This document shows positions 17,523-58,820 of a stretch of DNA of 64,000 nucleotides, in pieces. The notes under the pieces are model-generated. The model worked only from the letters and a program-made list of their open reading frames with translations. It was not told where the DNA came from and searched no databases. The stretch lies in NCBI RefSeq assembly GCF_009914755.1, contig NC_060927.1; one strand, written 5' to 3'. Origin of the DNA: the human T2T-CHM13v2.0 reference genome, Homo sapiens. The position numbers and the translations under genes were made by a program. The first letter of the stretch is position 1; each line of letters starts with the position of its first letter.

Positions 17523-17880
17523 TGATACGGTTTGGCTCTGTGTCCCCACCCAAATCTCACCATAAATTGCAATAATCCCCATGTGTCAAGGGTGGGACCA
17601 GGTGGAAGTAATTGGACCATGGGGGCAGTTTCCTCTATGCTGTTCTCATGATGAGTCACATGAGATCTGATGGTTTTATAAATGTCTGACATTTCACTCA
17701 TTGTCTGCTTGCACTCATTGTCTCTCCTGCCACCCTGTGAAGAGGTGCTCTCTGCCATTATTGTAAGTTTCCTGAGGCCTCCCCAGCCATGCAGAGCTGT
17801 GAGTCAATTAAACCTCTTTCCTTTATAAATGACCCAGTCTTGAGTATTTCTTCAGAGCAGTATGAGAACAGACTGATACA
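17523..17880 (+). mobile_element. THE1D/MSTA-type MaLR LTR
   Basis: tgatacggtttggctctgtgtccccacccaaatctc...gagaacagactgataca; TSD ttcat/gtcat. Confidence 0.85.
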
Positions 17881-18466
17881 GTCATTCATGCCTTTGTCTC
17901 AGTGAATCTCATTTATACATAACATAGACAAACAGGGAGGGGGAACAATCAGATATGCATTTGTGTCAGGTGGGCAGAGGGGTGAGAACAGACTGCTACA
18001 GTCATCCATGCCTTTCGCTCAGTGAATCTGCATTTATACATAACATAGACAAACAGGGAGGGGGAACAATCAGATATGCATTTGTGTCAGGTGGGCAGAG
18101 GGGTGAGAACAGACTGCTACAGTCATCCATGCCTTTGGCTCAGTGAATCTCATTTATACATAACATAGACAAACAGGGAGGGTGAACAATCAGATACACA
18201 TTTGTGTCAGGTGGGCAGAGGGGTGAGAACAGACTGCTACAGTCATCCATGCCTTTGGCTCAGTGAATCTGCATTTATACATAACACAGACAAAGAGGGA
18301 GGGGAACAATCAGATATGCATTTGTGTCAGGTAGGCAGAGGGGTGAGAACAGACTGATACAGTCATCCATGCCTTTGGCTCAGTGAATCTGCATTTATAC
18401 ATAGCATAGACAAAGAGGGAGGGGAACAATCAGATATGCATTTGTGTCAGGTGGGCAGAAGGGTGA
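17863..18466. repeat. ~120-bp tandem repeat, 5 copies
   Basis: Unit starts tgagaacagactg at 17863, 17983, 18104, 18224 and 18344. Confidence 0.95.
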
Positions 18467-18818: not shown

Positions 18819-20131
18819 CTATCAATTTACATTGCTATGATGAATTTTAACAGAAACACTTTAAAGATCTTAAAGCACACCAGAAATTTCCTTGTGGGAA
18901 AAATATGATGGAGGGGGCTACAAGACAAAAAGCTTTTTATCTTGGAGCCATCTTATTTAGGAACCAAAAGAAGGAGGCAGGTTTGCATGACCGAGTTCCC
19001 AGCTTGACTTTTCCCTTTAGTTTAATGAGTTTGGAGTCCCAAGCTTTATTTTCCTTTCACACTTAGAAGACCAAATACAATGTGGATGTAAACAGTTGTG
19101 TTGTTTAGGAAATAATGACAAGAAAAAGTCTGAATATGTTCACTACAGATGCAAGCATCTGATTTTATTTCAAATATTTTGCATCCAAGTTTGCTTACAT
19201 ACACAGATATTAAACCTACAGATACAAAAAGCTGAGTGTACTTACAAATTAATAACTGTACACAGGCAGCATAAAATTCTCTTTGTACATGCCAAAAACA
19301 TTCCGTGTCCACCCAGGGTGAACACAGCCACTTCACAAACAGGGTGTAAATAAGGAGGTTCACTAAGTACAGGAAAGTTACAAGACCATATTGGCATTTT
19401 AACAGCCATTCCTGAGAAAGAGAATGGGAAAGGGCTTAAGAGTCAGAGGAGAGGAAAAGAGGAAAACAGATGACCTCCTACATCAGAAGATGGAGCAGTG
19501 AGAATACAGAATAGGGAAGCAATAGTTAAAAAAAAAAAAGTAGAAACAGGATTTGATGTCAATTTGCTGTGCAAAGGGTAAAAAGGGGAGTTTTATTTCC
19601 AGGCTATCTGCCATGATCACAGCTAGTTTGTTACTGGTGATGTGAAATTTGGAAAAATAAAAGAACAATATGATGGCCAGAAGTGATACAGACTTGGACA
19701 CATCATGTTTGAAATATCTGAGGTCCCATACGTAGGGATGTCCAATTGACAATTGGGAATACAGTTCCAGAGTTCACAAGAGAGATCAAACCTGGAGATA
19801 AAAGATTTTGAAACTATCAGAATTTCAATGGTACCTGAATCCATCAGACCAAATGAACCTAAGAGAATGAAAGGATAACAAGGAACAAGTACAGAATCCA
19901 CAGAAATACTAATATTTACAAACAGAAATAGACTGTTAAAACCAAGAAGGAACTTTCTGAGTTTATTTCACAAATTAAGAAAAGCTCAATATTAGAAAGT
20001 CTACTAATACAATTCATCATATTCAGAGTCCTGAGGAGAAAAATCCTTTAATTGTCCACATAGGCATTAAGAAGATAAGTCTTAGAAACAGATTCCAGGT
20101 TCTGATTTCTGCATGTAAGAAGCTTAGAAGT

Positions 20132-20757
<626 letters not shown>

Positions 20758-20809
20758 GAATGGAAGTAATCAGTCCATCTTAACAACACATGAAAAGCTG
20801 AAAAGGTCA

Positions 20810-20920
<111 letters not shown>

Positions 20921-21572
20921 CTAAAAAAAAAATTTAAATAAAACAAAAGCTGAAGAGACTGAAAAATCAACAGTCCTTTTTGGATTTGAATGTGGAGAGA
21001 GGACATAGGGCAAACCACTGCCCCCAAGATTGGAGAGATAGAGAAGTGAATATGGGAATTTATGGCTTACAGGAACAGAGACTCACTACTGAAACCACCT
21101 TAGGAACCAGTGCTGGAGTAGAAAATCTTGAACTATAACTGGTGAATTGCTGAAGGTTCCATATGGACAACTCAAGGAGGTAAAAACACCAGGGAGATCC
21201 AGTTATGAGGGAGCATAATATTGTAAAATTTACCTCCTGGAGCTCCACCAGGCTCCTGTGGCAAATACCTGAGAAAACTTGCTTCTTGCTTCCACCTTTG
21301 GGAAGGAAAAAGGAAAACCATCTTAAAATATGCCAGAGCAACCTGTTCTTAACAAGGCTTATCCTCAGGAGAAATTACTGAACCTCAGCCTAACCTGCTC
21401 TCATATAACCAGATCCTAAATGACCTGCTGGAAGGGAAATTCCCAACTCCAGCCTACTCCAGTCATCCCTAAAGGGGAAGATAAAAACAGAGAAACACAT
21501 GTGAAGTTCATAGTCCAAAAGCAGAGACTCACTTAAACAATGAGGCCCCGTCGTAAGACTCCAGAACTCTTC

Positions 21573-21916
21573 TGCTACAGTCTGAATATCTGTTCCCTGC
21601 CGGACCCCCTGCAAAATGTGCCTGTTGAAACCGAGTCTCCAATGCACTAGAATTAAGGGGTGGGACCTTTGAAAGGTAATGGCAAAGCCAACCTGATTGG
21701 GATTAGTGCACTTATGAAAGAGGCCAAATGAAGCTTCTTTGTCCATTTCAACATGAGAGGACATATAGCTGGCACCATCTACGAGGAATGGGTCTCATCA
21801 AACACTGAATCTCCTGGAACCTTGACCTTGGATTTTCTAGCCTCTAAATTGAGCAATAAATTTCTGTTGTTTACAAATTACTTGCTCTAAGTTATGCTGG
21901 TGGATGGACTAAGACA
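21573..21916 (+). mobile_element. MST/MLT1A-type MaLR solo LTR inserted in an old L1 5' region
   Basis: tgctacagtctgaat...aataaatttctgttgttt...ggactaagaca; 5-bp TSD tcttc/gcttc. Confidence 0.8.
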
Positions 21917-22671
21917 GCTTCCCCTCCCCTCCACAGCTTCCCATCATTACTGGATGCACTGTTACAGTAGTTCCTTTTACCTGGTATCTCATATCTAGGA
22001 ATAAAGAAAAAGCACAAGGCATACTAAAAGGCAAAAAACACAATTTGAAGTGACAGATCATCAGAACCAGACACACCTATGATACTGGAATTATCAGACA
22101 GGGATTTTAAAAAAAAAATCTCTGAGTAGTATGCTAAGGGCTCTGATGAACAAAGGAGAGAGCATTCAAGAACAGATAGGCAATGTAAGCAGAGAGATAG
22201 AAGTCCAAGGAAAGAACAAAAGAGAAACAGTAGAGATAAAAAAAATACTGCAAAAGACCTGAAGAATGTCTTTGATTGGCTTATTAGTAGATTGAACACA
22301 ACAAAGGAAAGAGTCTCTGAGTTCTGGAAACTTTGAAAGAAACTTTAAAAACTGAAAACAATGGAATGTAATATCCAAGAACTGTGGGACAGCTAGAAAA
22401 GGTGTAACATAGAGTGATGAGAATACTAGAAGGAAAAAGAGAGAAATAGAAGAAACATCTGCAACAATCATGTCTGACAACTTCCACTGTTAATGTCAGA
22501 CACCAAACCAAAGATCCAAGAAGCTCAGAGCACACCAGGCAGGATACATGCCAAAAACCTACACCTAGGCATATTATTCTCCAACTGTGTAAAACATCAG
22601 CTCCAAAAGAAACCAAAGATGGAGTGGACAACATCTTACCTATAGAGAAACAAAGATAAGAATCACATTCA

Positions 22672-22980
<309 letters not shown>

Positions 22981-23239
22981 TTACATTCAACATCTCAGAA
23001 CCATGAAAGTAAAAAGAGAGTGGAATGACATAGTAAACATGCTGAGAGGAAAAAAAAAAACCATCAACTAAGATTTCAGTGCCCTGTGAGATCTTCTTTC
23101 AAAAGTAAATGAGAAATAAAACATTCCCTGGACAAACAAAAGTTGAGGAAACTTGTTACCAGCAGATGTGTCATGTGAGAAAATATTAAACATTATCTAG
23201 AGAAAAAAAAAGATACACATCTGAAAACTGAATCTACAT

Positions 23240-24288
<1,049 letters not shown>

Positions 24289-24652
24289 AATTACATACTT
24301 TAATATATACAAGGCTATGTATGCTTACATATAAGTGAAACAAATGGCAACAATAACACAAGACATAGGAATATGAGAGAAACTGGTATTACATTTCTAT
24401 TAGAAGGCAGTCGAAGTAACTGAACTGGTATAGTGTTATTTGAAGGTGGACTTGGATTTGTTGCAAGTCTATACTGCAAACTCCAGGGCAACTAGTAAAA
24501 ACCAAAGTATAGAAATGCTAAAAGAGAAAACAGGCCAGGTATAGTGGCTCTTGCCAAGGTAGAAAGATGGCTTGAGTCCAGGAGTTAGAGACTATCCTGA
24601 GCAATACAGTGAGACCCTGTCCCTACAGAAAAGAAAAGGCCAGGTATTGTGG

Positions 24653-24820
24653 TGCATACTTGTAGTCCTAGCTAATTGCATACTTGTAGTCCTAGCTAAT
24701 TGCATACTTGTAGTCCTAGCTAATTGCATACTTGCAGTCCTAGCTAATTGCATACCTGTAGTCCTAGCTAATTGCATACTTGTAGTCCTAGCTAATTGCA
24801 TACTTGTAGTCCTAGCTAAT
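24653..24820. repeat. 24-bp x7 minisatellite inside an Alu right arm
   Basis: (tgcatacttgtagtcctagctaat)7. Confidence 0.95.
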
Positions 24821-25145
24821 TGGGAGACTGAGGTGGAAGGATCACTTGAACCCATGAGGTTGAGGCTGCAGGGAGCCATGATCACACCACTGCACTCCAG
24901 CCTGGGTGACTGTCTCAATAAAAAAAAAAAAAAAAAAAAAAAAAGCAACGAGAGGAAACAAAAATCGTATAAAATCATCAACTCCATAAAAGGCAGAAAA
25001 AGAGTGGAGGACAAAGCAAGAACAAAGAACAATAGGAGTTAATGGAAAATGATATGGCAAAATTAATCCAACTGTATAATCACTTTGAATGTCAATGGTC
25101 TAAATGCACCAATGAAAAGACAAATTGTTAGAGCCCATCAAAATA

Positions 25146-31134: not shown

Positions 31135-34100
31135 CTGTAATGGCACATTTTTCCTCAAGTCAAAGCATCAGCCCAAAGATACTTGTCAAAAGAACAAGAA
31201 TCTGGGAATTCACTCTTTGGTGTGTCCATGTGTCTTATGTATTTTACATAAGATGTAGTTTGTTTTGCACTGTTTATGGTGGGAGAAGGAGTAATCACAG
31301 TAGAAATATGCTTCCACTGTAATAACTTATGAATTAATAAAATTGTATTACAAAGTTCACCTTATAGATCTAGAACCACCCTTATTGCTAGGGATAAAAG
31401 TATAAACAAAATGCAAGACCCTGTCTCTACAAAAATAATAAAAAAATATAGGCATAATGCTGCATGCCTGTAGTCCTGGCTACTCTGGAAGCTGAGGCTG
31501 AAGGATTGCTTGAGTCCAGGAGTTTGACAGTGCAGTGAGTTATGATCACACCACTGCACTCCAGCCTGACCAACAGAGAGCCTACCTCTCAAAAAAAAAA
31601 AAAAAAAGGAATAAAATTCTACTCCTCAAAGGAGCTCATGATCTGTTATGAATATATAAGTATAAACACATACTGGGAATAATGTTTAGGTGAACTCATT
31701 GAGACACAAGTTCAATGCAGACTAAGATAAGAGAAGGAGAAAATAAGTTTTGTTTATTTTGCACCATGAGGTTCCACTTTACTGAAAAATCAGGTGTTTG
31801 GCTCTTCCACATGAACCGTGAATTCTCATGACTATGAGAAAGTATCAGAAGTCTACTCACAAAGGCAAAGAGAACACACACCACTTTAATGGAACTCTGG
31901 ACAGCACCATGCCTAGATGAATGATCCTGGACAGTGATGAAAGCTAAATGCAATATTTAAGGAACTGATTATGCAGTGATTCTGCATTTAAATATTTGAC
32001 CCAATTTCAAAAATTCTTATGCACCTATCGTTTTTACATTATATTACTTCCTCAGTATCCATGGGGACTGATTCCAAGATACCCCCAGATATCAAAATCC
32101 ACAGATTGGATAACTCTCTTATATAAACTATTCTCATATTTGCATATAACTTATGCACATCCTCCTGTATACAGTCATGAGCTGCATAATAACATTTCAG
32201 TCAATGATGAAACATGTATATCACAATAGTCCCATAACATGATGATGAAACATACACGGAAATCTGATATTGGCATTGCAGATGAAGTGCAGAAAACGAT
32301 ATTCAATAATGGCTCTGAGCCACCTAGTTACCTATATACCAAAAACATATAAATAAAAATATACATATCATGTAGGTTTTCATAATACTATGATCTTCAC
32401 AAAACAATGAAATTACCCAAAGATGCATTTCTCAGAAAGTAATCCCATCAGTAAGCCATGCATGACTGAACTTTAACTCTTTAGATTACATATAATACTG
32501 AAGACAATGTAATGCTACATAAATGGCTGTTATACTGTACTGTTTAGGAAATAATGACAAGAAAAATTTCTGCAGATGCTCTTCACAGAGACAATCATCT
32601 ATTTTTGTGGGAATATTTTCAATCTGAAGTTGGCTGAATCCACAGATGCAAAACCCATGGATACAAAAGGGTGAATATACTTAATTAAAAGCATATACAC
32701 TGGCATTTCAAAATTTCCTTTCTACGGGACAAAAAATTGCTGTATCCACCCAGGGTGAACACAGCCACTTCACATACAGGTGTAAATAAGGAGGTCCAGT
32801 AAGGACAGAAAAGTTACATGACAATATTGGCATTTTAACAGCCATCCCTGAGGAAGAGAATGGGAAAGGGCTTAAGGGAAAGCCAGAAGGGAGTAAAGAG
32901 GAAGACAGATGACCACCTACATCAGGACATGGAGTGTAAGAATACACAATAGGGAAGTAGTTCTTAAGAGGAAAAAAATGTAGAAACAGGATTTGGTACC
33001 AATTTGCTGTGCACTGGGTAAAAAGGGGAGTTTTGTTTCCAAGTTATCTGTCATCATCCAGCTAGTTTGGTACTGGTGTTGTGAAGTGAAATTTGCAAAA
33101 AATAAAAGAATACGATAACCAGAAGTGACACAGACTTGGACATATCATGTGTGAAACATCTGAGGTTCCATATGTGGGAATGTCCAACTGGCAACTGGGA
33201 AAATGGCTCCACTGGTTCAGAAGAGAGATCAAAACTAAAGATAAAGATTTGGAAATTACCAGAATTTCAATGGTACCTGAATCCATCAGACCAAATGAAA
33301 ATAAGAGAATGAAAGAATAAAAGAAACAAGTACAGAATCTACAGAAACACTAACATTTACACAGGAAGAGAAACAGACTGTGAAGACCAAGAAGGAACTT
33401 TCTGAGTTTATTCCACGAATAAAGAAAAGTTCAATATTCGGAAGTCTACTAATATAATTCATCATGATCATAGTCCTGTGGAAAAAAATCCTTTAACTGT
33501 GCATATAGGCATTGAGAAGATAGTTTTAGAAACACCTTCCAGGTTCCTATTTCTGCATGTAAGAAGCTTGGAAGTAATCAATAATTACTTTACAATAATT
33601 AATTTTAATAACAATCTTAAATTAATATGACACAATTAATCTTAACAACAAATAAAAAGCTGAAGAGACTAAAAAATCAACAGTTCTTTCTAGATTTGAA
33701 ACTCAGGGGAGGACACAGGGCAAACCACTGCCCCCAGGATTGCAGAGACAGAGAAGTGAATATAGGACTTAATAGCTTACAGGAAAATGGACTCACTACT
33801 GAAACCAACTTTGGAACCCGTGCTGGAGTAGAAAAACTCAAACCGTAACTGGTGAACGGCTGGAGGATCCGCGTGGACAACTCTAAGTGTTAAAAACTAC
33901 AAAGAGATAGAGTTATTGTCGGGGAGGGGGCACAATACTGTAAAATTGTCTCATGGAGCTTCACCAGGCTCCTGTGACAAACACCTGACAAAACTCCCCT
34001 CCTGCTTCAACCTTTCGGAAGGAAAAAGGAAAACCATTTTGAAATATGTCAGAGCACCCATTTCTTAACAAGGCTTGTCCACAGGAGAAACTACTTAACT

Positions 34101-34253
34101 TCAGCCTAATCTGCTCTAGTATAATCGGAGACTAAATAACCTAGGGGAAGGGAATTATCCCCTTCCACTGCAGCCCATTCTAATCATGTTCCGCCCAAGG
34201 TGGAAAATTAATTAAACAGAGGAACACTTCTGAGGTTCACAGTATAGACCCAA

Positions 34254-34419
34254 TCATAGCATTCCAGAACACGGCTGCCGGGGTCTGCGTGTTTGTCCCT
34301 CACATATGATACCAAAACACTGCTCCTGAGGTCTGAATGTTTCTCCCTCACATAGAATTCCAGAACACTGCTACGAGGGTCTGAATGTTTGTCCCTCACA
34401 ACACTGCTGCTGTGGTCTG
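34254..34419. repeat. First ~3.5 monomers of the 48-bp satellite, separated from the main array by the L1 insertion
   Basis: Same monomer and orientation as 38186-43367. Confidence 0.85.
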
Positions 34420-35110
34420 TTTTTTTTTTTTTTTCTTTCTGTCTTTTTAAAATTACTTTATTAATATTTATTTTTAATTGACATATGACATTGCAAGTTT
34501 TTGTAATGTAAAATGTCAGGGACAAACATTCAGACCAATGCAGTAGCGTTCTGGCATCCTATGTAAGGGAAAAACATTGAGACTCTCGCAGTAGTGTCCT
34601 GGAATCCTATCTGAAGGACAAGCATTCAGACCCCAGTAGCAGTGTTCTGGAACTCTATGTGAGGGAAAAAGTACGCATACATCGTGAAAAGGTCAAATCT
34701 AGCTAATTAACAAATACATCAATTCGCATAGCTATCATTTTTCTGGTGAATACACCTAACATTAACTTTCTATTTCTCAAGAATGCAATAGGTCATCATC
34801 AATTACAATCACCTTGCTCTACAATACATCTCCTGAAATTTATTCCTTCTATCTAACCCTAAGTATGTATCCTCTGATTAACATCACTGCAACTCCCCTT
34901 TACCCCTAGCTCTGATACCCACCATTGTACTTTGTAACTCTATGAGATCAACTTTTTTATATACCAGTAGGAGTCATGTCATGATATATTTGTCTTTCTG
35001 CACCTGGCTTATTTCACTTAACATGTTGTCCTCCAGGTTCATCCATGTTGTTCAAAAATGACAGGGTTTTCTTTTTTTTTTACTGCCAAATAATATACCA
35101 CATTTTCTTT
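34420..35110 (-). mobile_element. Old L1MA-type 3' UTR fragment with poly(A) at 34420, interrupted by inverted satellite monomers
   Basis: ttttaattgacatat...ctagctaattaac...ctggcttatttcacttaacat...ccaggttcatccatgttg motifs. Confidence 0.7.
34513..34670. repeat. ~3.3 inverted 48-bp satellite monomers embedded in an old L1 3' end
   Basis: agggacaaacattcagacc...gtgttctggaa..ctatgtgaggg is the reverse complement of the monomer. Confidence 0.85.
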
Positions 35111-35138
35111 CTTTTTTTAATATATTTTCCATATTGAA

Positions 35139-38185
<3,047 letters not shown>

Positions 38186-41100
38186 GGGTCTCTTTGCCCT
38201 CACATAAGATTCCAGAACACTACTGCTGTGGTCCGAGTGTTTGTCCCTCACATAGGATTTCAGAACACTGCTGCTGTGGTCTGCTTGTCCCTCACATAGG
38301 ATTCCAGAACATTGCTACAAGGGTCTGAATGTTTGTCCATCACGTAAGATTCCACAGCACTGCTGCTGGGGTCTGAGTGATTGTCCCTCACATAGGATTC
38401 CAAAACACTGCTACGAGGGTCTGAATGGTTTGTCCCCCGCATAGGATTCCAGAACACCATGGCGAGGGTCTGAATGTTTGTCCCTCACATAGGCTTCCAG
38501 ACCACTCCTGCTGTGGTCCGAATGTTTTTCCCTCACTTAGGATTACAGAACACTGCTAGTGTGTTCTGAATCTTTGACCCTTACGTAGAATTCCAGAACA
38601 CTGCTGCTGGGTTCCAAGTGTCTGTCCTTCATATAGGATTCCAGAACACTTCAACGAGGGTCTGAATGTTTGTCCCTCACATAGGATTCAACAACACTCC
38701 TGCTGTGGTCTGAATGTTTGTCCCTCACATACGATTCCGGAACACCGCTGCTGGGTTCTGAGTGTTTGTCCCTCACATAGGACTCCACAACACTGCTGCT
38801 GTGGTCTGAATATTTCTTCCTCACATAGGATTACAGAACACTGCCACAAGGGTCTGAATATCTGTCCCTAACATAGGATTCCAGAACATTCCTGCTGTGG
38901 TCTGAATGTTAGTCCCTCACATAGGATTCCAAAACACTGCTGCTGGATTCTGAGTATTTCCCCTCACTTAGGATTCCAGAACACTGCTATGAGGGCCTGA
39001 ATGATTGCCCCTCACTAGGACTCCAGAACAATGCTGCTGGAGTCTGAATGTTGATACCTCACATAAGACTCCAGAACAATCCTGCTGTGGTCTGAATGTC
39101 TGTGACTCACATAGGATTCCAGAACACTCCTGCTGTGGTCTGAATGTTTGTCCCTCACACAGGATTCCAGAACACTGCTGTTGGGTTCTGAGGGTTTGTC
39201 CCTCACATAGGATTCCAGAATACTGCTACGAGGGTCTGAATGTTTGCCCCTCACACAGGATGCCTGAACACTGCTGCTGGGGTCTGAATATTTATCTCTC
39301 ACATAGGATTCCAGAACACTGCTACGAGGGTCTGAATGTTTGTCCCTCACATAGGATACCAGTACCCTGCTGCTAGGGTCTGAATGTTCCTCCCTCAAAT
39401 AGGATACTAGAACACTGCTACAAGGGTCTGAATGTTTGTCCCTCACATAGGATTGCAGAACACTCCTGCTGTGGTCTGAATGTTTGTCTCTCACATAGGA
39501 TTCCAGAACACTGCTGGTGGGTTCTGAGTTTCTGTCACTCACAAAGGATCCCAGAACACTGCTATGAGGGTCTGAATGTTTGTCCCTCACATAGGATTAC
39601 AGAACACTGCTGCTGGGGTCTGAATGTTTGTCCCTCACATAGGATTCCAGAACTATGTTACGAGAGTCTGAATGTTTGCCCTCAAACAGGATTCCAGAAC
39701 ACTCCTACTGTGGTCTGAATGCTTGTTCCTCACATACAATTCCAGAACACTCCTGCTGTGGTCTGAATCCTTGCCCCTCACATAGGATTCCAGAACACTG
39801 CTGCTGGGTTCTGAGGGTTTGCTCCTCACATAGGATTCCAGAACACTGCTACGAGAGTCCAAATGTTTGCCCCTCCAACAGGATTCCAGAACACTGCTGC
39901 TGGAGTCTGAGTGTTTGTCCCTCACATAGGATTCCAGAACACTGTTACGAGGGTCTGAATGTTTGACCCTCACATAGGACTCCAGAACACTCCTACTGAG
40001 GTCTGAATGTTTTTCCCTCACATAGGATTCCAGAACTCCCCTCCTGTGGTCTGAATTTCTCCCTCACATAGGATTCCAGAACAATGCTGCTGTGTTCTGA
40101 GTGTCTGTCCCTCACATAGGATTCCAGAAGACTGCTATGAGGGTCTGAATGTTTGTCCCTCTCATGGGATTCCAGAACACTGTTACGAGGGTTTGAATGT
40201 TTGTCCCTCACATAGGATTCCAGAACACTCCTACTGTGGTCTGAAAGTTTGTCCCTCACACAGGATTCCAGAACACTCCTACTGTGGTCTGAATGTTTGT
40301 CCCTCACACAGGATTCCAGAATACTGTTGCTGGGTTCTGAGTATTTGTTCCTCACATAGGATTCCAGAAAACTGCTATGAGGGTCCGAATGTTTGCCCTT
40401 CAAATAGTATTCCAGAACACTGCTGCTGGTGTCTGAATGTTTATTCCTCACAAAGGATTCCAGAGCACTGCTAGGAGTGTCTGAATGCTTGTCCCTCACA
40501 TAGGATTCCAGAACTCTCCTGCTGTGGTCTGAATGTTTGTACCCCATGTAGTACTCAAGAACACTGCTGCTGGGGTCTGAATGTTTGTCCCTCACATAGG
40601 ATTCCAGAGCACTGCTAGGAGCATCTGAATGCTTGTCCCTCACATAGGATTCCAGAACTCTCCTGCTGTGGTCTGAATGTTTGTACCCCATGTAGTACTC
40701 AAGAACACTGCTGCTGGGGTCTGAATGTTTGTCCCTCACATAGGATTCCAGAACACTGCTGCTGGGGTCTGAATGTATGTCCCTCACATAGGATTCCAGA
40801 ACACTGCTGCTGGGTTCTGAGTATTTGTCCCTCACATAGGACACCAGAACGCGCCTGTTGTGGTCTGAATGTTTATCCCTCACATAGGATTCCATAACAC
40901 TCCTGCTGTGGTGTGAATGTTTGTCCCTCACATAGGATTTCAGAACACTCCTGCTGTGTTCTGAATATTTGCCCTCACATAGGATTCCAGAACACTGCTG
41001 TTGGGTTCTGAGTGTTTGTCCCTCACATAGGATTCCAGAACAATGCTATGACTGTATGAATGTTTGTCCCTCAGATAGGATTTGAGAACACTGCTGCTGG

Positions 41101-43367
41101 ATTCTGAGTGTTTCTCCCTCACGTAAGATTTCAGAACACTACTACGATGGTATGAATGATTTTCCCTCACACAGGATTCCAAAACACTGCTGCTGGGATG
41201 TGAATGTTTGTCCCTCACATGGGATTCCAGAACACTGTTATGAGGGTCTGAACGTTTGTCCTTCACATATGATTCCAGAACACTCCTACTGTGATCTTAA
41301 TGTATGTTCCTCACATGGGATTCCAGAACACTCCTGCTGTGGTCTGACTAACCCTCACATAGGACTCTAGAACACTCCTACTGTGGTCTGAATATCTGTC
41401 CCCCACATAGCATTCCAGAACACTACTGCTGGGTACTGAGTGTCCCTCACATAGGAATCCAGAACACTGCTACGAGGGTCTGAATGTTTTTCCCTCACAT
41501 AGGATTCCAGAACACTGTTGCTGGGTTCTGAGTGTTTGTCCCTCAGATAAGATTCCAGAACACGGCTACGAGGGTCTGAATGTCCCTCACATAGGATTCC
41601 AGAACACTGCTGTTGGGGTCTGAATGTTTGTCCCTCACATAGGATTCCAGAACACTGCTTCGAGGGCCTAAATGTCTGTCCCTCACATAAGATTCCAGCA
41701 CACTGCTATGCGGTTCTGAATGTCCTCACATAGGATTCCAGAGCACTCCTGCTGTGGTCTGAATATTTGTCCCTCACATGGGATTCCAGAACACTGCTAC
41801 GAGGGTCTGAATGTCCCTCACATAGGATTCCAGAACACTCCTGCTGGGGTCTGAATGTTTGTCCCTCACACAGGATTCCAGAGCACTCTGCTGTGGTCTT
41901 AATGTTTTTTAATCACATAGGATTCCAGAACACTGCTACAAGGGTCTGAATGTTTGTCCCTCACATAGGATTCCAGAACACTCCTGCTATGGTCTGAATG
42001 TTTGTCCCTCACATAGGATTCTAGAACATTCACACTGGGGTCTGAATGTTTGCCCTTAACATAGGATTTCAGAACACTGCTCCTGGGGTCTGAATGTTTG
42101 TCCTTCAAATAGGATTCAAGAACACTCCTGCTGTGGTCTGAAAGTTTGTCCCTCACATAGGATTCCAGATCTCTCCTGCTGTGGTCTGAAAGTTTGTCCC
42201 TCACATAGGATTCCAGAACACTGCTGCCATGGTCTGAATGTCCCTCACATAGGATTCCAGAACACTTTTGCTGGTGTCTGAATGTTTATACCTCACATAG
42301 GATTCCAGAACACTGCTATGAGGGTCTGAAAGTTTGTCCCTCACATAGGATTCCAGAACACTGCTGCTAGGGTCTGAATATCTGTCCGTTACATAGGATT
42401 CCAGAATACTGCTGCTGGGTTTTGAATGTCTGTCCCTCACATAGAATTCCAGAACACTGCTGCGAGTGTCTGAATGTTTGTCCCTCACATGGGATTCCAG
42501 AACACTGCTGCGAGGGTCTAAATGTCTGTCCCTCACATAACATTCCAGCACACTGCTATGAGGTTCTGAATGTTTGTCCCTCACATAGGATTACAGAGCA
42601 CTCCTGCTGTGGTCTGAATTTTTCTCCCTCACATAGGATTCCAGAACACTGCTGCTGTGGTCTGAATGTTTGCCTCTCACATAGGATTCCTGAACACTGC
42701 TACGAGGGTCTGAATGTTTGTCCCTCACATAGGATTCCAGAACACTGCTGCTAGGGTCTGAATATCTGTCCGTTACATAGGATTCCAGAATACTGCTGCT
42801 GGGTTTTGAATGTGTGTCCCTCACATAGAATTCCAGAACACTGCTGCGAGTGTCTGAATGTTTGTCCTTCACATAGGATTCCTGAACACTGCTACGAGGG
42901 TCTGAATGTTTGTCCCTCACATAGGATTCCAGAACACTCCTGCTGGGGTCTGAATGTTTGTCCCTCACATAAGATTCCAGAACACTGCTGTGTGATCTGA
43001 ATGTTTGTCCCTCACATAGGATTCCAGAACACTTCTGCTGTGGTCTGATAGTTTGTTCCTCACATAGGATTCCAGAATACTGCTACAAGGTTCTGAATGT
43101 TTGTCCCTCACATAGGATTCCAGAACACTGCTACAAGGGTCTGAATGTTTGTCCCTCACATAGGATTCCACAACACAACTGCTGGGATCTGAATGTTCGT
43201 CCCTCACATAGGATTCCAGACACGGCTACGAGGGTCTGAATGTTTTTCCCGCACACAGGATTCTAGAACACTCCAGCTGGGGTCTGAGTGTTTGTCCCTG
43301 ACATAGGATTCCTGAACACTGCTGCTGCCACTAGAGTCGTTGCGAGTGTCTGAATGTTTGACCTTCA
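38186..43367. repeat. 48-bp satellite array (CER/D22Z3 type), ~108 monomers
   Basis: Monomer gtctgaatgtttgtccctcacataggattccagaacactgctgctggg; 16-aa periodicity in the ORF track ([16 protein letters not shown]). Confidence 0.9.
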
Positions 43368-43498
43368 CCAAACACCAAATGTTCTGGCACTTTAGTCTTG
43401 GACTTTCCAGCCTCCAGATCTGTGAGCAATAATCTCTGTTGTTTATGAATTACTCAGTCTAAAGTATTTTGTTATAGCCACCTAAAGAGAAGAAGAGA
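43362..43498 (+). mobile_element. 3' part of the paralogous MaLR LTR, directly continuing the satellite array
   Basis: ccttcaccaaacacc...cttggactttccagcctccag...tgttgtttat...tattttgttatagc aligns with 21793-21916; followed by TSD-like gcatc. Confidence 0.8.
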
Positions 43499-43499
43499 G

Positions 43500-45225
43500 C
43501 ATCACCTGCCCTGACACCTCATTACCACATTACTGAAGCTATATTAACAGCAGTCACTTTTAGTGGGTACTTCATGCCTGGAATTATGGGGAAAAAATTA
43601 CAAGGCATACTAAAAGGCAAAAAAATAAAAAAAAATACAATTTGTAGCAACAGAGCAAGCTTCAGAAGCAGACAAACCTATGATTTTGGAATTTTTTTTT
43701 TAAACCTCTGGAGAATATGCTAAGGGCTCTAATGAATGAACTAGACAGCATTCAACTGTAGATGGGTAATGTATCCAGAAAGACATCATTAGAACCATCA
43801 ACGTAATTTAGTGATAAAAAATGTGGTAAATAACTGAAGAATACCTCTGATGGCTTATTAGTAGACTAGACTCAGCTGAGTAAAGAATCTCTGAGCTTGA
43901 GGATTTATCAACAGAAACTTCAAAAACTAAAAAAGAAAAACACTGAAATGAACAAAAGATGATATCCAAGACTGTGGGACAACTACAAAAGGTGAAACAG
44001 GGTAATGAGAATACCAGGAGGAGAAGAAATAGAAGAAAGATCTGCAACAACCATGTCTGAGAACTTCCAGTATTAATGTCAGACACCAAACCAAAGATCC
44101 AGGAAGCCCCGAGAACACCAGGCAGGATAAATGCCAACAACCTACACTTGGACATAAAATTTTCAAACTATATGAAATAAAAGACAAAGGAAAACTCTGA
44201 AAGAAACCAGAGGTGGGGCAGAAAACACCTTACCTACAGAGACACAAAGATAAGAACTGAATTCAACATTGCAGAAACTGTGAAAGCAAGAAGACAGTGA
44301 AATGGAAAATTCAAAATGTTGACAGAAAAAAAACCCACCAACCTAAGTTTCTGTACCCACTGAAACCACCCTTCAAAAGTGAAGGAGAATTAAGGCCTTC
44401 CTCAGAAAAATAAAAATTCAAGAAACTTGTTGCCAGGAGACCTGTCTTGCAAGAAATGTTAAATGAAATTCTTTAGAGGGAAACAAAAGATATATAACTG
44501 AAACCTGGATCAACATTTTTTTAAAAAGAGCATTAAAGAAAGAATTGTGGTACAATAAAAACTTATGTATTTATTCTTAATTGATCTGACCAAGAAGTTT
44601 ATAGATAATAATAAATACACACAGATAGATTATGTATGCTTATACACAAGTGAAATGAGTAACACTAATAAAAGGAATGGAATGGAAGGATGGGAGGGAG
44701 GAATTGTGGTACAATAAAAACATGTATTTATTCATAATTGATCTGACCAATAAGCTTGTAGATAATAATAAATACACACAGATAGATTATGTATGCTTAT
44801 ACACAAGTGAAATAAAGAATAATAATACAAGGAATGGAATGGAAGGATGGGAGGGAGGAATCAGGTGTTTTCTTTGTTAAGCAGGTAGTCTTATTTGTGG
44901 GACAGTGGGATAGTGTTATATGAAAGTGGACTTGAATTGGTTGTAAATGTATATTGCAAATTCTATGGCAACTAGTTAAAAAAAGTTTTAAAAAAAAGAA
45001 GTACATGCTAAGAAAGACAGGGAAAATGTAGTCATCTAAAATCATCAATGAAAACTGCAAAGGGCAGAAAAAGAGTGGTAGACAAGAGAATGAAGACTAA
45101 GGAGAATGAATAGAAAACAGTAACAAACACAGTAGATATTAATCCAATGATATCAATAATCACTTTGAATGTTAATGGTATGAATGTACCAATTCAAAGA
45201 CAGAGATTGTCAGAGTCTATCAAAA
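43500..45225 (+). mobile_element. Old L1M 5'/ORF1 region (copy B, continues 33655-34250 across the satellite)
   Basis: caaggcatactaaaaggcaaaaaa...gtcagacaccaaaccaaagatcc shared with copy A. Confidence 0.65.
44542..44861. repeat. 159-bp tandem duplication
   Basis: gaattgtggtacaataaaaac at 44542 and 44701. Confidence 0.92.
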
Positions 45226-45227
45226 GA

Positions 45228-48481
<3,254 letters not shown>

Positions 48482-56224: not shown

Positions 56225-58820
56225 CTGGTAGACTAAAGGTGACAACTTCTTTCCTGCTCCTCTCTCTGTGAGAACCAATTCCCCTGAACCTTGCCCAGAC
56301 TACTGACTTATTTGGCCAACAGAAGGTGACAAAGGTGGTATTTGGGGACTTCAGAAGCCAGGCTGAGAGAACGGAACACTTATCCAGGAGAAAGCCAGTC
56401 ACCAGGCAGGAAATCCCACTTCCCTGAGACCCCCATGATGGAAACCATACGGCCAGTCCACGACTAGCTACACTCATTGACAGCCCCCACTGAGCCTCCA
56501 GCAACACCCACTCCCAACAACTAGTGAGCCACCCTGCACACCACACCGCTGTGCTTTCAAACAATCCAGCTCGGCTGCTGCCCTGCTGCAACTATGTGTG
56601 AGATGAGCTGGCCAACAAGACTCTCTAAGCCAAAAAACAAGTAATAATGAGTTGTTTTAAGCTGCCAAGTTTTGGGGATGGTTTCTTCAGAATAGATAAC
56701 TGGAACAGAATATGGCAGCTGGAAATGAGCCGCTGTGGTAATCAGAAGCTACAACATGTGCCACAACTGTGAGGCTGAGCTGTAACTGGGCCTCAAGGAG
56801 ACCATTCATGCAAGCTGGAAGGGCATCAAGACTCTTGGTGAGGGCCTGAAGGACAGTGAGAAAATGTCATTGGAAACTGGAGAAAAGGCCTGGGAGTTAC
56901 GTGCTGAGGGACTGTGGGAAAACTACAGCCACAATACGGAAACTGAAAGGGCACTGCACCATCTCAGGGATCTGCCTAAGGAGACATCTGAGAAGAATGT
57001 GGAAAGTGCTACCAGCCTCCCCTAACTGTCACTGAATAAATATGACAGGAGAGGGACATGATCTAAAGAAGGAGGTTCAGTTTTCAGACAGAATTTAGAG
57101 AAAATATAAAGAAATAATTTATTGTCTCAAAAGGCCAAAGTAAAAAAAAAAAGGAAAGAAAACAAAAGGAAAAAAAATGAAAAAGAAGCCACTCTATTGA
57201 CCATAAGAAAAAGGCAGAGAAAGTTGGTCAACGGCAACCCAGGCACTGAAGGAAAAAGAACATGGAGAATGACAAGAGCCCAGAGGGAGGAGTAAAAAGG
57301 CACAAACGCCATTCTCAGGGACCAGGACTGAGCGTCATTCTCAGGGACCAGGACTGGGCACTAATCAGAGACCTGCAACAGGTGCCCCATGGGAATGACC
57401 AACCGTTAGACAGGGCCTGCAGGGCAGCACCTACCTCCTGCCTTCCACCAACCCCATCTAAAGAGAAATGCTGACTGTTTTCACACCAGTCCCCTCACTG
57501 CGGCTGAGTGTGTGGGTGCAGATGACAGGCCACCACAACCTGATTCAGTCCTCACTGTGGCTGAGTGTGTCGGGGGGCAGATGACAGGCCACCACAACCT
57601 GATTCAGTCCTCACTGTGGCTGAGTGTGGGGGGGGGGGGTAGATGACAGCCCACCACAACCTGATTCAGTCCTCACTGAGGCTGAGTGTGTCGGGGGGCA
57701 GATGACAGGCCACCACAACCTCATTCAGTTCTCACTGTGGTTGAGTGTGTGCGGGGGCAGATGACAGGCCACCACAACCTCATTCAGTCCTCACTGCGGC
57801 TGAGTGTGTGGGGGGGTAGATGACAGACCACCACAACCTCATTCAGTCCTCACTGCGGCTGAGTGTGGGAGGGGGGTAGATGACAGCCCACCACAACCTG
57901 ATTCAGTCCTCACTGCAGCTGAGTGTGTCGGGGGGCAGATGACAGGCCACCACACCCTCATTCAGTCCTCACTGCGGCTGAGTGTGTGGGGGGTAGATGA
58001 CAGGCCACCACAACCTGATTCAGTCCTCACTGTGGCTGAGTGTGTGGGGGGACAGATGACAGGCCACCACAACCTCATTAAGTTCTGTCACTGAGTGTGT
58101 GGGGGGACAGATGACAGGCCACCACAACCTGATTCAGTCCTCACTGTGGCTGAGTGTGTGGGTGAAGATGACAGGCCACCACAATCACAACCTGATTCAG
58201 GATTCAGATGGGCTCCAGCCAGTGCCATAAGGAAAACCATTCTGGGGCTCTTGAGAGGGGCAAAGCATAATTTGCATGTGGGAGAAATGTTAATAGTTTG
58301 TGGCCAGAGGACAAGCTGTGGTTTATTAGACTGCTGCAGGTTCCTACTATGCTTCTCATCAAAAGGGGGAATCTAATCACCTTCCCCCCTTGAATCGTGG
58401 CTGGTCTCAGTGATGAGTATGACTGGACAGTGTGACAGGAGAAATGCTCTGGGACTTCTGAGGGGCGATCATGAGAGGCCTTACAGCTTCTGCCTGGGCC
58501 TCTTGGACACACACCCTGGGAGAAGCCAGACAAACCTGACTACCTGACGATGCCAGACTGGGAGGAAGTCTGTGCTGGCCACAAAGAGAGGGCTGGGTGC
58601 CTACTCCACGTCCCCAGCCACTAGAGTCCTTCTGGGTGCCTGCTCCACGTCCCCAGCCACTAGAGTCCTTCCAGATGAGACCAGAGACATCATGAAGCAG
58701 CCAACCCACACCACCCTGTCCAGTGTCTTGACCCAGAAAATTGTGATATGTAAAAGGATAAATTCCTGGTTTAAGCCAGCAAGGTTACTGGTATGTTGTT
58801 ACATCACAGATAATTAAAAC
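56225..58820 (+). mobile_element. Degenerate MLT1 (MaLR) element: LTR ~56225-56707, internal region, LTR ~58316-58820
   Basis: Two MLT1-like 3' ends (ttttaagc...atagataactggaaca; tttaagcca...cagataattaaaac) flank an internal region. Confidence 0.55.
57487..58200. repeat. ~59-bp GC-rich minisatellite, ~12 copies
   Basis: Unit cagtcctcactgYggctgagtgtgt(g)n-agatgacaggccaccacaacctSatt with a variable G-run. Confidence 0.95.

What the first reader, a model, noticed from the sequence alone, without database searches (positions are those of the whole stretch)
21544..21921. Apparent birthplace of the 48-bp (CER-type) satellite: an unamplified L1/LTR junction preserved in the duplicate copy
Seen: copy A has one MaLR LTR (21573-21916, TSD tcttc/gcttc) in an old L1 5' region. 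The junction 21544-21591 (ggccccgtcgtaagactccagaactcttc|tgctacagtctgaatatct) aligns without gaps to a satellite monomer (gtccctcacataggattccagaacactcc|tgctgtggtctgaatgttt) at 34 of 48 positions by my count. In copy B the satellite occupies exactly this position: it starts after the same L1 flank (34230-34254), and its last monomer runs into the 3' half of the same LTR (43362-43498), then a TSD-like gcatc and the same downstream L1. Inference: monomer = ~21 bp of L1 flank/TSD + the first ~21 bp of the LTR + ccctca from the LTR interior, joined by an internal LTR deletion and then tandemly amplified in place. A monomer that spans a unique insertion junction should have arisen once, so this locus, or a segmental-duplication relative of it, would be the source of 48-bp arrays elsewhere in the genome. 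I do not know of this origin having been described.
Basis: partly seen in the sequence, partly recalled or inferred. Interest (0 to 1): 0.9.

Follow-up and report, generated by a model that had tools for sequence, protein, structure and literature searches.

The report
Birthplace of the human CER satellite
The 48-base CER satellite of human acrocentric and pericentromeric DNA appears to be a tandemly amplified scrap spanning the spot where an old LTR element landed in an old L1 element, and this window keeps both the unamplified junction and an array grown from it.

Summary
Copy A (19102-22662) and copy B (32541-44256) are collinear at about 80% identity. A has a 344-bp LTR (21573-21916, 5-bp target duplication) inside an L1 5' region. 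B has a 48-bp array in the same place, bounded on the left by the L1 and on the right by the LTR's 3' part.

- A profile of the array, run on the window with the arrays masked, gives one significant hit: the A junction (21552-21596, ungapped, E 4.8e-7).
- LTR-only copies elsewhere match only the LTR part of the unit (10.1 bits at most). L1-only copies match only the L1 part (5 bits at most).
- The junction and the satellite share a derived "CC" where 13 independent L1 copies mostly read A and T.
- The L1/LTR junction exists at only 5 places in the genome.
- B's array-to-half-LTR junction occurs 37 times, on chromosomes 1, 3, 4, 9, 13, 14, 15, 21, 22 and Y.

Open points:
- whether chr3 or an acrocentric copy is the ancestral site;
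- where the unit's CCCTCAC came from;
- the flanks of at least 5 arrays that lack B's junction.

Seven full-text searches found no published origin for CER. Repbase and Dfam could not be checked.

The parts
19102..21572 (+). Copy A, L1 5' region upstream of the LTR. It is interrupted by Alu-like inserts at about 20133-20900.
   Evidence: Collinear with B 32541-34161 at about 82%. Dispersed copies lie on many chromosomes. L1 ORF1 domains lie 0.6-1.4 kb downstream on the same strand in 4 of 12 independent copies.
21552..21599 (+). Unamplified proto-unit in copy A: 21 bp of L1 (21552-21572, including the target duplication tcttc at 21568-21572) followed by the first about 27 bp of the LTR.
   Evidence: It is the only significant match of the array profile outside the arrays: 24.7 bits, E 4.8e-7, ungapped. 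It matches the majority unit at 34-35 of 48 positions, against a maximum of 28 elsewhere in the window.
21573..21916 (+). The second copy of the target duplication, gcttc, is at 21917-21921.
   Evidence: Independent L1 copies lack it and run through the site. 27 other dispersed matches at 67-87% identity. The subfamily name was not tested.
21922..22662 (+). Copy A, L1 downstream of the LTR.
   Evidence: Collinear with B 43593-44256. Continuous with the left flank in L006 and L007.
32541..34275 (+). Copy B, L1 5' region up to the original L1/LTR junction (34275|34276). B 34246-34275 reads as the L1 site and B lacks about 28 bp of the L1 just upstream of it.
   Evidence: alignment with 13 independent L1 copies.
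34255..34400 (+). First three units of the array. The first is the original junction: L1 part to 34275, LTR start 34276-34296, CCCTCAC 34297-34303.
   Evidence: TRF; sequence. This left junction is present at only 5 genomic places.
34401..34512 (.). T-rich, then AT-rich filler between the first units and the inverted units.
34513..34670 (-). 3.3 inverted 48-bp units.
   Evidence: TRF; blastn on both strands.
34671..38192 (.). Younger L1 material (ORF2 fragments in both orientations) that interrupts the array.
   Evidence: Open frames read as L1 ORF2-like by eye; not scanned against Pfam.
38193..43366 (+). Main 48-bp array, about 108 units. The last, irregular unit ends ...gtctgaatgtttgaccttca.
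   Evidence: TRF: period 48, 107.8 copies, 79% matches. 94 in-phase monomers..
43367..43498 (+). 3' part of the same LTR in copy B (homologous to A 21794-21916). About 190 bp of the LTR (A about 21601-21793) are absent. The target-duplication copy gcatc is at 43499-43503.
   Evidence: The array-to-LTR junction is repeated 37 times in the genome.
43504..44256 (+). Copy B, L1 downstream of the LTR.
   Evidence: Collinear with A. 30 other genomic copies are 92-94% identical over 1360 bp. A weak L1 ORF1 dsRBD-like hit at 44261-44410, below the cut-off.

Best explanation
**Order of events**
1. An old L1 element took a solo-LTR insertion in its 5' region, with a 5-bp target duplication. This is shown.
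2. The stretch carrying the L1 and the LTR was then duplicated, giving copies A and B on either side of the ZNF717 exons. This is shown by collinearity through both LTR ends.
3. In copy B, a 48-bp piece spanning the left L1/LTR junction was duplicated head to tail and then expanded. The mechanism is inferred: a slip or unequal exchange, followed by unequal crossing-over.
4. About 190 bp of the LTR interior were lost, either before or after the first duplication. The order is not resolved.

**The unit.** It consists of about 21 bp of L1, the first 21 bp of the LTR, and CCCTCAC from the LTR.

**Spread.** The result is the 48-bp satellite known as CER. The A+B locus was later copied to acrocentric short arms. 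Pieces holding the array and its right flank were then copied to many pericentromeric and acrocentric sites, where the arrays grew and turned over independently.

**Function.** None is implied. This is an account of origin.
For: **The junction matches the unit.**
1. The array profile has its single significant non-array hit at the A junction: 21552-21596, E 4.8e-7, ungapped. The count of 34-35 of 48 compares with 28 at most anywhere else in the window.
2. The four other A-type copies score 24.4-30.6 bits.

**Each half traces to its own source.**
3. Nine independent LTR copies hit at 10.1 bits or less. Six do so at E 0.052 or below, with hits starting at unit positions about 26-30 and running through 48 into the next unit's first bases. 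Independent L1 copies score 5 bits or less; four of them have a weak hit covering unit positions 1-25, and for L006 and L007 that hit lies at the homologous site.
4. In the 21-bp L1 part, the satellite agrees with the majority of 13 independent L1 copies at 17 of 21 positions, and with A at 16 of 21. At 21561-21562 both A and the satellite read CC, where 11 of 13 L1 copies read A and 9 of 13 read T. At 21553, 21556 and 21568 the satellite keeps the L1 majority state that A has lost. That shared change ties the unit to this particular L1 copy.

**The array sits at the junction.**
5. It starts in phase out of the L1 and ends in phase into the LTR. The flanks are collinear with A.

**The junction is unique.**
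6. The L1/LTR junction occurs at only 5 places: chr3, chr14:4.51 Mb, chr21:2.41 Mb, and chr22:4.17 and 9.18 Mb. All 12 candidates were scored.

**The arrays elsewhere descend from it.**
7. B's array-to-half-LTR junction occurs 36 times at 3 or fewer mismatches, with 0 in the reversed control. The DNA search gives 37.
8. A 32-mer spanning the LTR and L1 parts of the unit has 5777 matches at 2 or fewer mismatches and 0 in the control. The exact 32-mer is listed on chr1, 2, 3, 4, 9, 13 and 14.
9. The flank tree gives the same branching order in the A clade and the B clade. All 28 copies other than chr3 and chr22:9.15 Mb form one clade (100/99).

**The flanking repeat is L1.**
10. ORF1 domains above Pfam's cut-off lie downstream in 4 of 12 copies.
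Against: - Inside the array there is no positional orthology between chr3 and ten other copies: 83-85% in register against 81-87% out of register. So the array itself gives no date and no direction.
- At least 5 of the 19 CER clusters listed lack B's junction: chr2:132.5 Mb, chr9:42.36, 47.61 and 77.23 Mb, and chr13:17.71 Mb.
  - The chr2 and chr13 arrays end in a different flank: a short inverted CER stretch, an L1 3' end of about 170 bp, then Alus.
  - The 4 kb fetched at chr9:47.63 Mb did not reach the array's end. The other two chr9 arrays were not fetched.
- The list stops at chr14:4.54 Mb, so there is no full census.
- The LTR interior also resembles the unit with gaps (by eye).
- That this satellite is Repbase's CER rests on its period and chromosomal distribution, not on a comparison with the library consensus.
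- No other species could be searched.
Confidence: 0.85

Rival explanations
1. The origin is right but the place is wrong. The unit arose from this L1/LTR junction, but in a copy that now lies on an acrocentric short arm (for example chr22:9.15-9.18 Mb), and the chr3 ZNF717 locus is a secondary copy.
For: In both the A clade and the B clade of the flank tree, chr22:9.2 Mb branches first and chr3 second, with support of only 87/68 and 88/74. The chr3p12 neighbourhood holds other duplicated pseudogenes such as DUX4L26 and FRG2C (hub annotation).
Against: The order of the two basal branches is weakly supported. chr3 is the only one of the five full loci outside an acrocentric short arm, and it lies in an annotated coding gene (hub annotation). 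All 26 flank-only copies in the tree nest with acrocentric full copies; that topology fits chr3 as the source of a single early transfer but does not show it.
Confidence: 0.3
2. The satellite arose elsewhere, for instance wholly from an LTR of this family. It was then copied into copy B by conversion or ectopic recombination at the LTR's 5' end, and the match of its other half to the L1 flank is fortuitous.
For: The LTR family's 5' ends match about 27 bp of the unit. Its interior holds CCCTCAC in 3 of 6 copies, followed by a stretch loosely like the unit. Some arrays lack B's flanks.
Against: LTR-only copies score 10.1 bits or less, against 24.4-30.6 for the junction. The non-LTR half matches the L1 site at 16-17 of 21 positions without gaps and shares the copy-specific CC. 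B's first unit continues the L1 without a break. The array's right end with half the LTR is shared by 37 arrays.
Confidence: 0.05
3. The resemblance between the junction and the monomer is chance.
For: Only 34 of 48 positions are identical.
Against: E 4.8e-7 for a single hit in about 117,000 positions, lying exactly at the site homologous to the array. Both halves are confirmed separately in independent L1 and LTR copies.
Confidence: 0.01

Closest known systems
[quoted passage not shown]
   Same: - The period is 48 bp.
- The unit recurs in thousands of copies on acrocentric short arms and in pericentromeres.
- This matches the distribution given in passages of PMC2588610, PMC6942050, PMC3759726 and PMC9186530.
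   Different: The chr3 array is small (about 9 kb including an L1 insert), lies in an intron of ZNF717, and keeps both original flanks. No comparison with the Repbase or Dfam consensus was possible.
Satellites born from transposable elements, such as the 89-bp array derived from MER20 and the 3.5-kb MaLR 'LTR arrays' described by Warburton et al. 2008 (PMC2588610, passages read)
   Same: Part of a mobile element is amplified in tandem. The source element is still visible at the edge of the array, and the arrays are later spread by segmental duplication.
   Different: Here the unit spans the junction of two unrelated elements (L1 and an LTR). It therefore marks one insertion event. An unamplified paralogue of that same junction survives 12 kb away.

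Membership tests
CER 48-bp satellite | Tandem array with a 48-bp period | tested here: met
   TRF finds period 48, 107.8 copies, at 38193-43327, plus two short blocks. 86 of 105 anchor spacings are exactly 48.
CER 48-bp satellite | Large arrays on acrocentric short arms and in the pericentromeres of chr14 and chr22 | tested here: met
   - 5777 pattern matches, listed on chr13 and chr14 short arms among others.
- Unit matches at chr22:16.01 Mb and chr14:13.01 Mb.
- Junction copies on chr13, 14, 15, 21 and 22.
- The expected distribution was taken from passages of PMC2588610 and PMC6942050.
CER 48-bp satellite | Sequence match to the Repbase/Dfam CER consensus | not testable with these tools
   No repeat library is held, and sequence from memory is not admissible.
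Satellite derived in place from a transposable-element junction | Each part of the unit is homologous to a different element, in the order found at the insertion site | tested here: met
   L1-only copies match unit positions 1-25. LTR-only copies match positions about 27-48 plus 1-5. The junction matches across both parts.
Satellite derived in place from a transposable-element junction | The array is bounded in phase by the two source elements | tested here: met
   On the left, the L1 runs into the first unit. On the right, the last unit runs into the LTR's 3' part.
   tg at 21573-21574 and ca at 21915-21916; tcttc and gcttc flank it. The empty site is seen in L006 and L007. 27 further genomic matches at 67-87% identity.
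   No Dfam or RepeatMasker library is held. No consensus of the LTR was built.
L1 (LINE-1) 5' region | L1 ORF1 domains downstream on the same strand | tested here: met
   - Above Pfam's cut-off: Tnp_22_dsRBD in L012, L021 and L031, and Transposase_22 in L006 and L021. That is 4 of 12 independent copies, 0.6-1.4 kb downstream.
- The window's own copy B reaches only 18.6 bits at 44261-44410, below the cut-off.

The most novel reading that the evidence does not exclude
Every CER array in hominoid genomes descends from one 48-bp slip at a single L1/LTR insertion junction in what is now an intron of ZNF717 on 3p12.3. This includes the blocks that bound the distal junction next to the ribosomal DNA on all five acrocentric chromosomes. 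On this reading the window holds both the ancestral array and its unamplified sister junction, and the origin has not been described in print.
Probability: 0.45. Interest if true: 0.7.

Novelty: new member of a known kind. Interest (0 to 1): 0.6.

Why it matters
**Why CER itself matters.** CER is one of the named satellites of human acrocentric short arms. It bounds the distal junction beside the ribosomal DNA, and it is the landing site and vehicle of the K111/K222 HERV-K proviruses.

**What a dated, single-locus origin would give.**
- A root for trees of CER monomers and array flanks.
- A marker for the order in which material moved from 3p12 to the acrocentric arms and among them.
- A clean worked example of how a satellite is born. 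The unit spans a unique insertion junction, so it can only have arisen once, and an unamplified sister copy shows the starting state.

It does not bear on any function of CER.

Tried and rejected
**Steps that did not work or gave nothing**
- A census of all CER arrays with their flanks. The pattern search lists only the first 100 places, so stops at chr14:4.54 Mb. Only four smaller pieces were fetched.
- Positional orthology inside the array, as a way to date it. In-register identity to ten other copies is no better than out-of-register identity.
- The Science versions of Hoyt 2022 and Altemose 2022 are not held. Their bioRxiv versions do not mention CER in the main text.
- The first Pfam scan of long open frames in the independent L1 loci gave only a sub-threshold L1 hit. 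Shorter frames downstream of the site gave the ORF1 domains.

**Readings considered and rejected**
- That the L1/LTR junction belongs to the L1 family's own consensus. Rejected: independent L1 copies lack the LTR.
- That A is a collapsed array. Not excluded if amplification came before the LTR deletion. Either way it is unnecessary.
- That the unit comes from direct repeats of CCAGA(A)CAC in the L1 flank and the LTR interior. Rejected: the spacing would be about 40 bp, not 48 (by eye).

Full report
**What is in the window.** The window is human T2T chr3:75764001-75828000, inside ZNF717 (hub annotation).

blastn of 19000-25000 against 31500-47000 gives a collinear series:
- A 19102-20132 = B 32541-33576 (82.6%)
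- A 20945-21444 = B 33655-34161 (81.6%)
- A 21795-21882 = B 43365-43454 (76.9%)
- A 22007-22038 = B 43593-43624
- A 22253-22353 = B 43828-43928
- A 22371-22662 = B 43962-44256 (80.5%)

Between B 34161 and 43365, Tandem Repeats Finder reports a 48-bp repeat in three blocks: 34255-34400 (3 units), 34513-34670 (3.3 units, inverted) and 38193-43327 (107.8 units, 79% matches). The gap at 34671-38192 holds open frames that read as L1 ORF2 by eye, in both orientations. I take this to be a later L1 insertion; the frames were not scanned against Pfam.

**The LTR in copy A is an insertion, and it predates the A/B duplication.**
- A reads ...ccagaactcttc | tgctacag ... taagaca | gcttcccctcccc.
- Independent copies of the flanking repeat (L006 on chr8, L007 on chr15) run straight across the site. 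They read ...AGAACACTTTCCCTCCCC... and ...AGAACATTTCCCGTCCCC....
- So 21573-21916 is an inserted 344-bp element with TG...CA ends and a 5-bp target duplication.
- B is collinear with A through the LTR's 3' end and into the downstream repeat. The same insertion is therefore present in both copies.

**The flanking repeat is L1, read on the + strand.** ORF1 domains above Pfam's cut-off lie 0.6-1.4 kb downstream in 4 of 12 independent copies:
- L012, Tnp_22_dsRBD, 44.2 bits
- L021, Tnp_22_dsRBD 36.6 bits and Transposase_22 25.0 bits
- L031, Tnp_22_dsRBD, 26.4 bits
- L006, Transposase_22, 24.9 bits

The LTR has 27 other dispersed matches at 67-87% identity. I built no consensus of it.

**Is the junction like the satellite unit beyond chance?** I took 94 in-phase monomers from the main array. 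Their majority unit is 48 bases long.
The best window, at 21546, gives 35.
- Across all 48-mers of both strands outside the arrays, every window with 29 or more matches lies at 21536-21560. The best elsewhere is 28.
- An nhmmer profile of three consecutive units, run on the window with the arrays masked, gives one significant hit: 21552-21596, 24.7 bits, E 4.8e-7, ungapped. The next hit is the unmasked tail of the last unit (E 0.02). All others have E of 0.4 or more.

**Does each half come from its own element?** Genome searches supplied independent copies.
- The L1/LTR junction itself exists at only 5 places: chr3, chr14:4.51 Mb, chr22:9.18 Mb, chr22:4.17 Mb and chr21:2.41 Mb, at 92-94% identity. 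The other 7 of the 12 scored candidates match only the L1 side.
- The four non-chr3 junctions score 24.4-30.6 bits against the profile.
- L1-only copies score 5 bits or less. Four of them (L006, L007, L029, L034) have a weak hit covering unit positions 1-25 only, and for L006 and L007 it lies at the homologous site.
- Nine independent LTR copies score 10.1 bits or less. Six of them hit at E 0.052 or below, with alignments that start at unit positions about 26-30 and run through position 48 into the next unit's first bases.
The junction matches far better than LTR 5' ends in general do.

**Position-by-position comparison of the 21-bp L1 part (A 21552-21572) with 13 independent L1 copies.**
- The satellite agrees with the L1 majority at 17 of 21 positions, and with A at 16 of 21.
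- At 21553, 21556 and 21568 the satellite keeps the L1 majority state and A has changed.
- At 21561-21562 both A and the satellite read CC, where 11 of 13 L1 copies read A and 9 of 13 read T.
- This shared change ties the unit to this particular L1 copy rather than to the L1 family.

**The array is in place.**
- B 34246-34275 reads as the L1 site (AGACCCAATCATAGCATTCCAGAACACGGC).
- It is followed at 34276 by the LTR start (TGCCGGGGTCTGCGTGTTTGT), then CCCTCAC, then the L1 part of the second unit.
- At the other end, the last unit (...GTCTGAATGTTTGACCTTCA) continues into the LTR at the point homologous to A 21794. About 190 bp of the LTR are missing.
- An array bounded by the L1 on one side and the LTR on the other, in phase and in the right order, is what amplification of a piece spanning the junction would leave.

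**An unresolved detail.** The unit's CCCTCAC could be the LTR's own bases 22-29.
- A reads TCCCTGCC there.
- Single LTR copies read GTCCCTC, TTCCCC and GTCTCAC there.

Or it could be the interior motif where B's LTR resumes.
- 3 of 6 independent copies read exactly CCCTCAC there, and two more match at 6 of 7 positions.

It makes the right boundary fall in phase with no further event. The first option needs a later deletion at a short homology. Both take two events, and I cannot choose between them.

**Arrays elsewhere.**
- A 32-mer spanning the LTR part and the L1 part of the unit has 5777 genome matches at 2 or fewer mismatches, and none for the reversed control. The exact 32-mer is listed on chr1, 2, 3, 4, 9, 13 and 14 before the list is cut at chr14:4.54 Mb. 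Those arrays therefore all carry the chimeric unit.
- B's left junction (L1 plus first unit) occurs only at the 5 full loci (40 of 171 candidates scored).
- B's right junction with 260 bp of flank occurs at 37 places at 89-92% identity (40 of 1639 candidates scored, the last three being weak LTR hits).
- A 32-base pattern across the array-to-LTR joint gives 36 matches at 3 or fewer mismatches and 0 in the control. These lie on chr1 (2), chr3 (2), chr4 (2), chr9 (1), chr13 (4), chr14 (7), chr15 (3), chr21 (7), chr22 (7) and Y (1). The 37th copy is chr22:9.15 Mb.
- Of the 19 CER clusters visible's list, 14 have this junction at the expected end and 5 do not: chr2:132.5 Mb, chr9:42.36, 47.61 and 77.23 Mb, and chr13:17.71 Mb.
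- I fetched two of those ends. chr2 and chr13 share a different right flank: a short inverted CER stretch, an L1 3' end of about 170 bp, then Alus. The chr2 left flank is also unrelated to B. I read these as secondary duplicates cut within an array, but their descent from B rests on the unit alone.
- The 4 kb fetched at chr9:47.63 Mb did not reach the end of that array.

**Order of duplications.** I built a maximum-likelihood tree of 916 bp of right flank for 30 B-type copies, rooted on the 5 A-type copies.
- It puts 0.14 + 0.14 substitutions per site between the A and B clades.
- chr3 B lies only about 0.067 from the other B copies.
- In both clades chr22:9.2 Mb branches first and chr3 second, with weak support (87/68 and 88/74). 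All other 28 B copies form one clade (100/99). It includes the chr21:2.39 and chr22:4.14 Mb full loci and all 26 flank-only copies.
- So the A/B duplication is several times older than the spread. The whole A+B locus was copied as a block, and the many flank-only arrays descend from an acrocentric copy.
- Which of chr3 and chr22:9.2 Mb sits at the ancestral site cannot be decided without other species. chr3 is the only full locus outside an acrocentric short arm, and it lies within an annotated gene.
- Inside the arrays there is no positional orthology: 83-85% in register against 81-87% out of register, compared with 92-94% in the flank. The arrays have therefore turned over since they spread.

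**Is it known?** Seven full-text searches found no statement on how CER arose. Passages read:
- PMC2588610 lists CER arrays and describes other satellites derived from mobile elements.
- PMC3759726 and PMC4425911 describe the K111 and K222 proviruses in CER:D22Z3.
- PMC6942050 describes CER at the distal junction, also in chimpanzee.
- PMC12008813 reports CER in a hoolock gibbon centromere region.
- PMC12767296, PMC9186530 and the 2026 K111 preprint 10.64898/2026.09.11.751073 mention CER without giving an origin.
- The bioRxiv versions of Hoyt 2022 and Altemose 2022 do not mention CER in their main text.

Repbase and Dfam records, supplements and subscription papers were not seen, so prior description cannot be excluded. 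That the satellite here is CER rests on its 48-bp period and its distribution, not on a library match.

**Verdict.** The reading that the 48-bp unit is an amplified L1/LTR insertion junction, with copy A as its unamplified sister, is well supported (about 0.85). That chr3 is the actual birthplace is plausible but open. This is a new case of a known kind, a satellite derived from mobile elements. It is unusually clean and concerns a named human satellite.

Noticed in passing
window 19102-44256; L002-L005, L014-L017, L044-L046: The whole stretch holding copies A and B, and so the 3' part of ZNF717 between them, is present four more times on acrocentric short arms: chr14:4.51-4.55 Mb, chr21:2.39-2.41 Mb, chr22:4.14-4.17 Mb and chr22:9.15-9.18 Mb. 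Identity is 92-95%, and the arrays there are 12-25 kb long by the distance between the left and right junctions.
   Followed up: partly
L073 (chr2:132.51 Mb) and L089 (chr13:17.71 Mb): Two CER arrays that lack B's junction share another right end: about 65-70 bp of inverted CER, an L1 3' end of about 170 bp, then Alus. They look like copies of one secondary rearrangement.
   Followed up: partly
window 34401-38192: After the first three units come a T-run, an AT-rich filler, 3.3 inverted units, and then L1 ORF2-like frames in both orientations. This looks like an L1 insertion with an inversion that carried a few satellite units with it.
   Followed up: no
window 44542-44861: A 157-bp tandem duplication just downstream of copy B is present in all 30 other flank copies examined, so it predates the spread.
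   Followed up: partly
window 41841-43340 against L044-L072: The array interior is 83-85% identical to other arrays in any register, while the adjoining flank is 92-94% identical. The arrays have turned over independently since duplication.
   Followed up: yes
L038:2452-2802 (+), chr19:32.56 Mb: An open frame with a strong TFIID 31-kDa subunit (TAF9-like) domain, E 1.4e-33, lies beside an old L1 copy. It is probably a processed pseudogene.
   Followed up: no
window 17863-18466 and 57493-58184: Two other tandem arrays: 120 bp x 5 at 95% matches, and 59 bp x 11.8 at 88% matches with higher-order periods of 178 and 237 bp.
   Followed up: no
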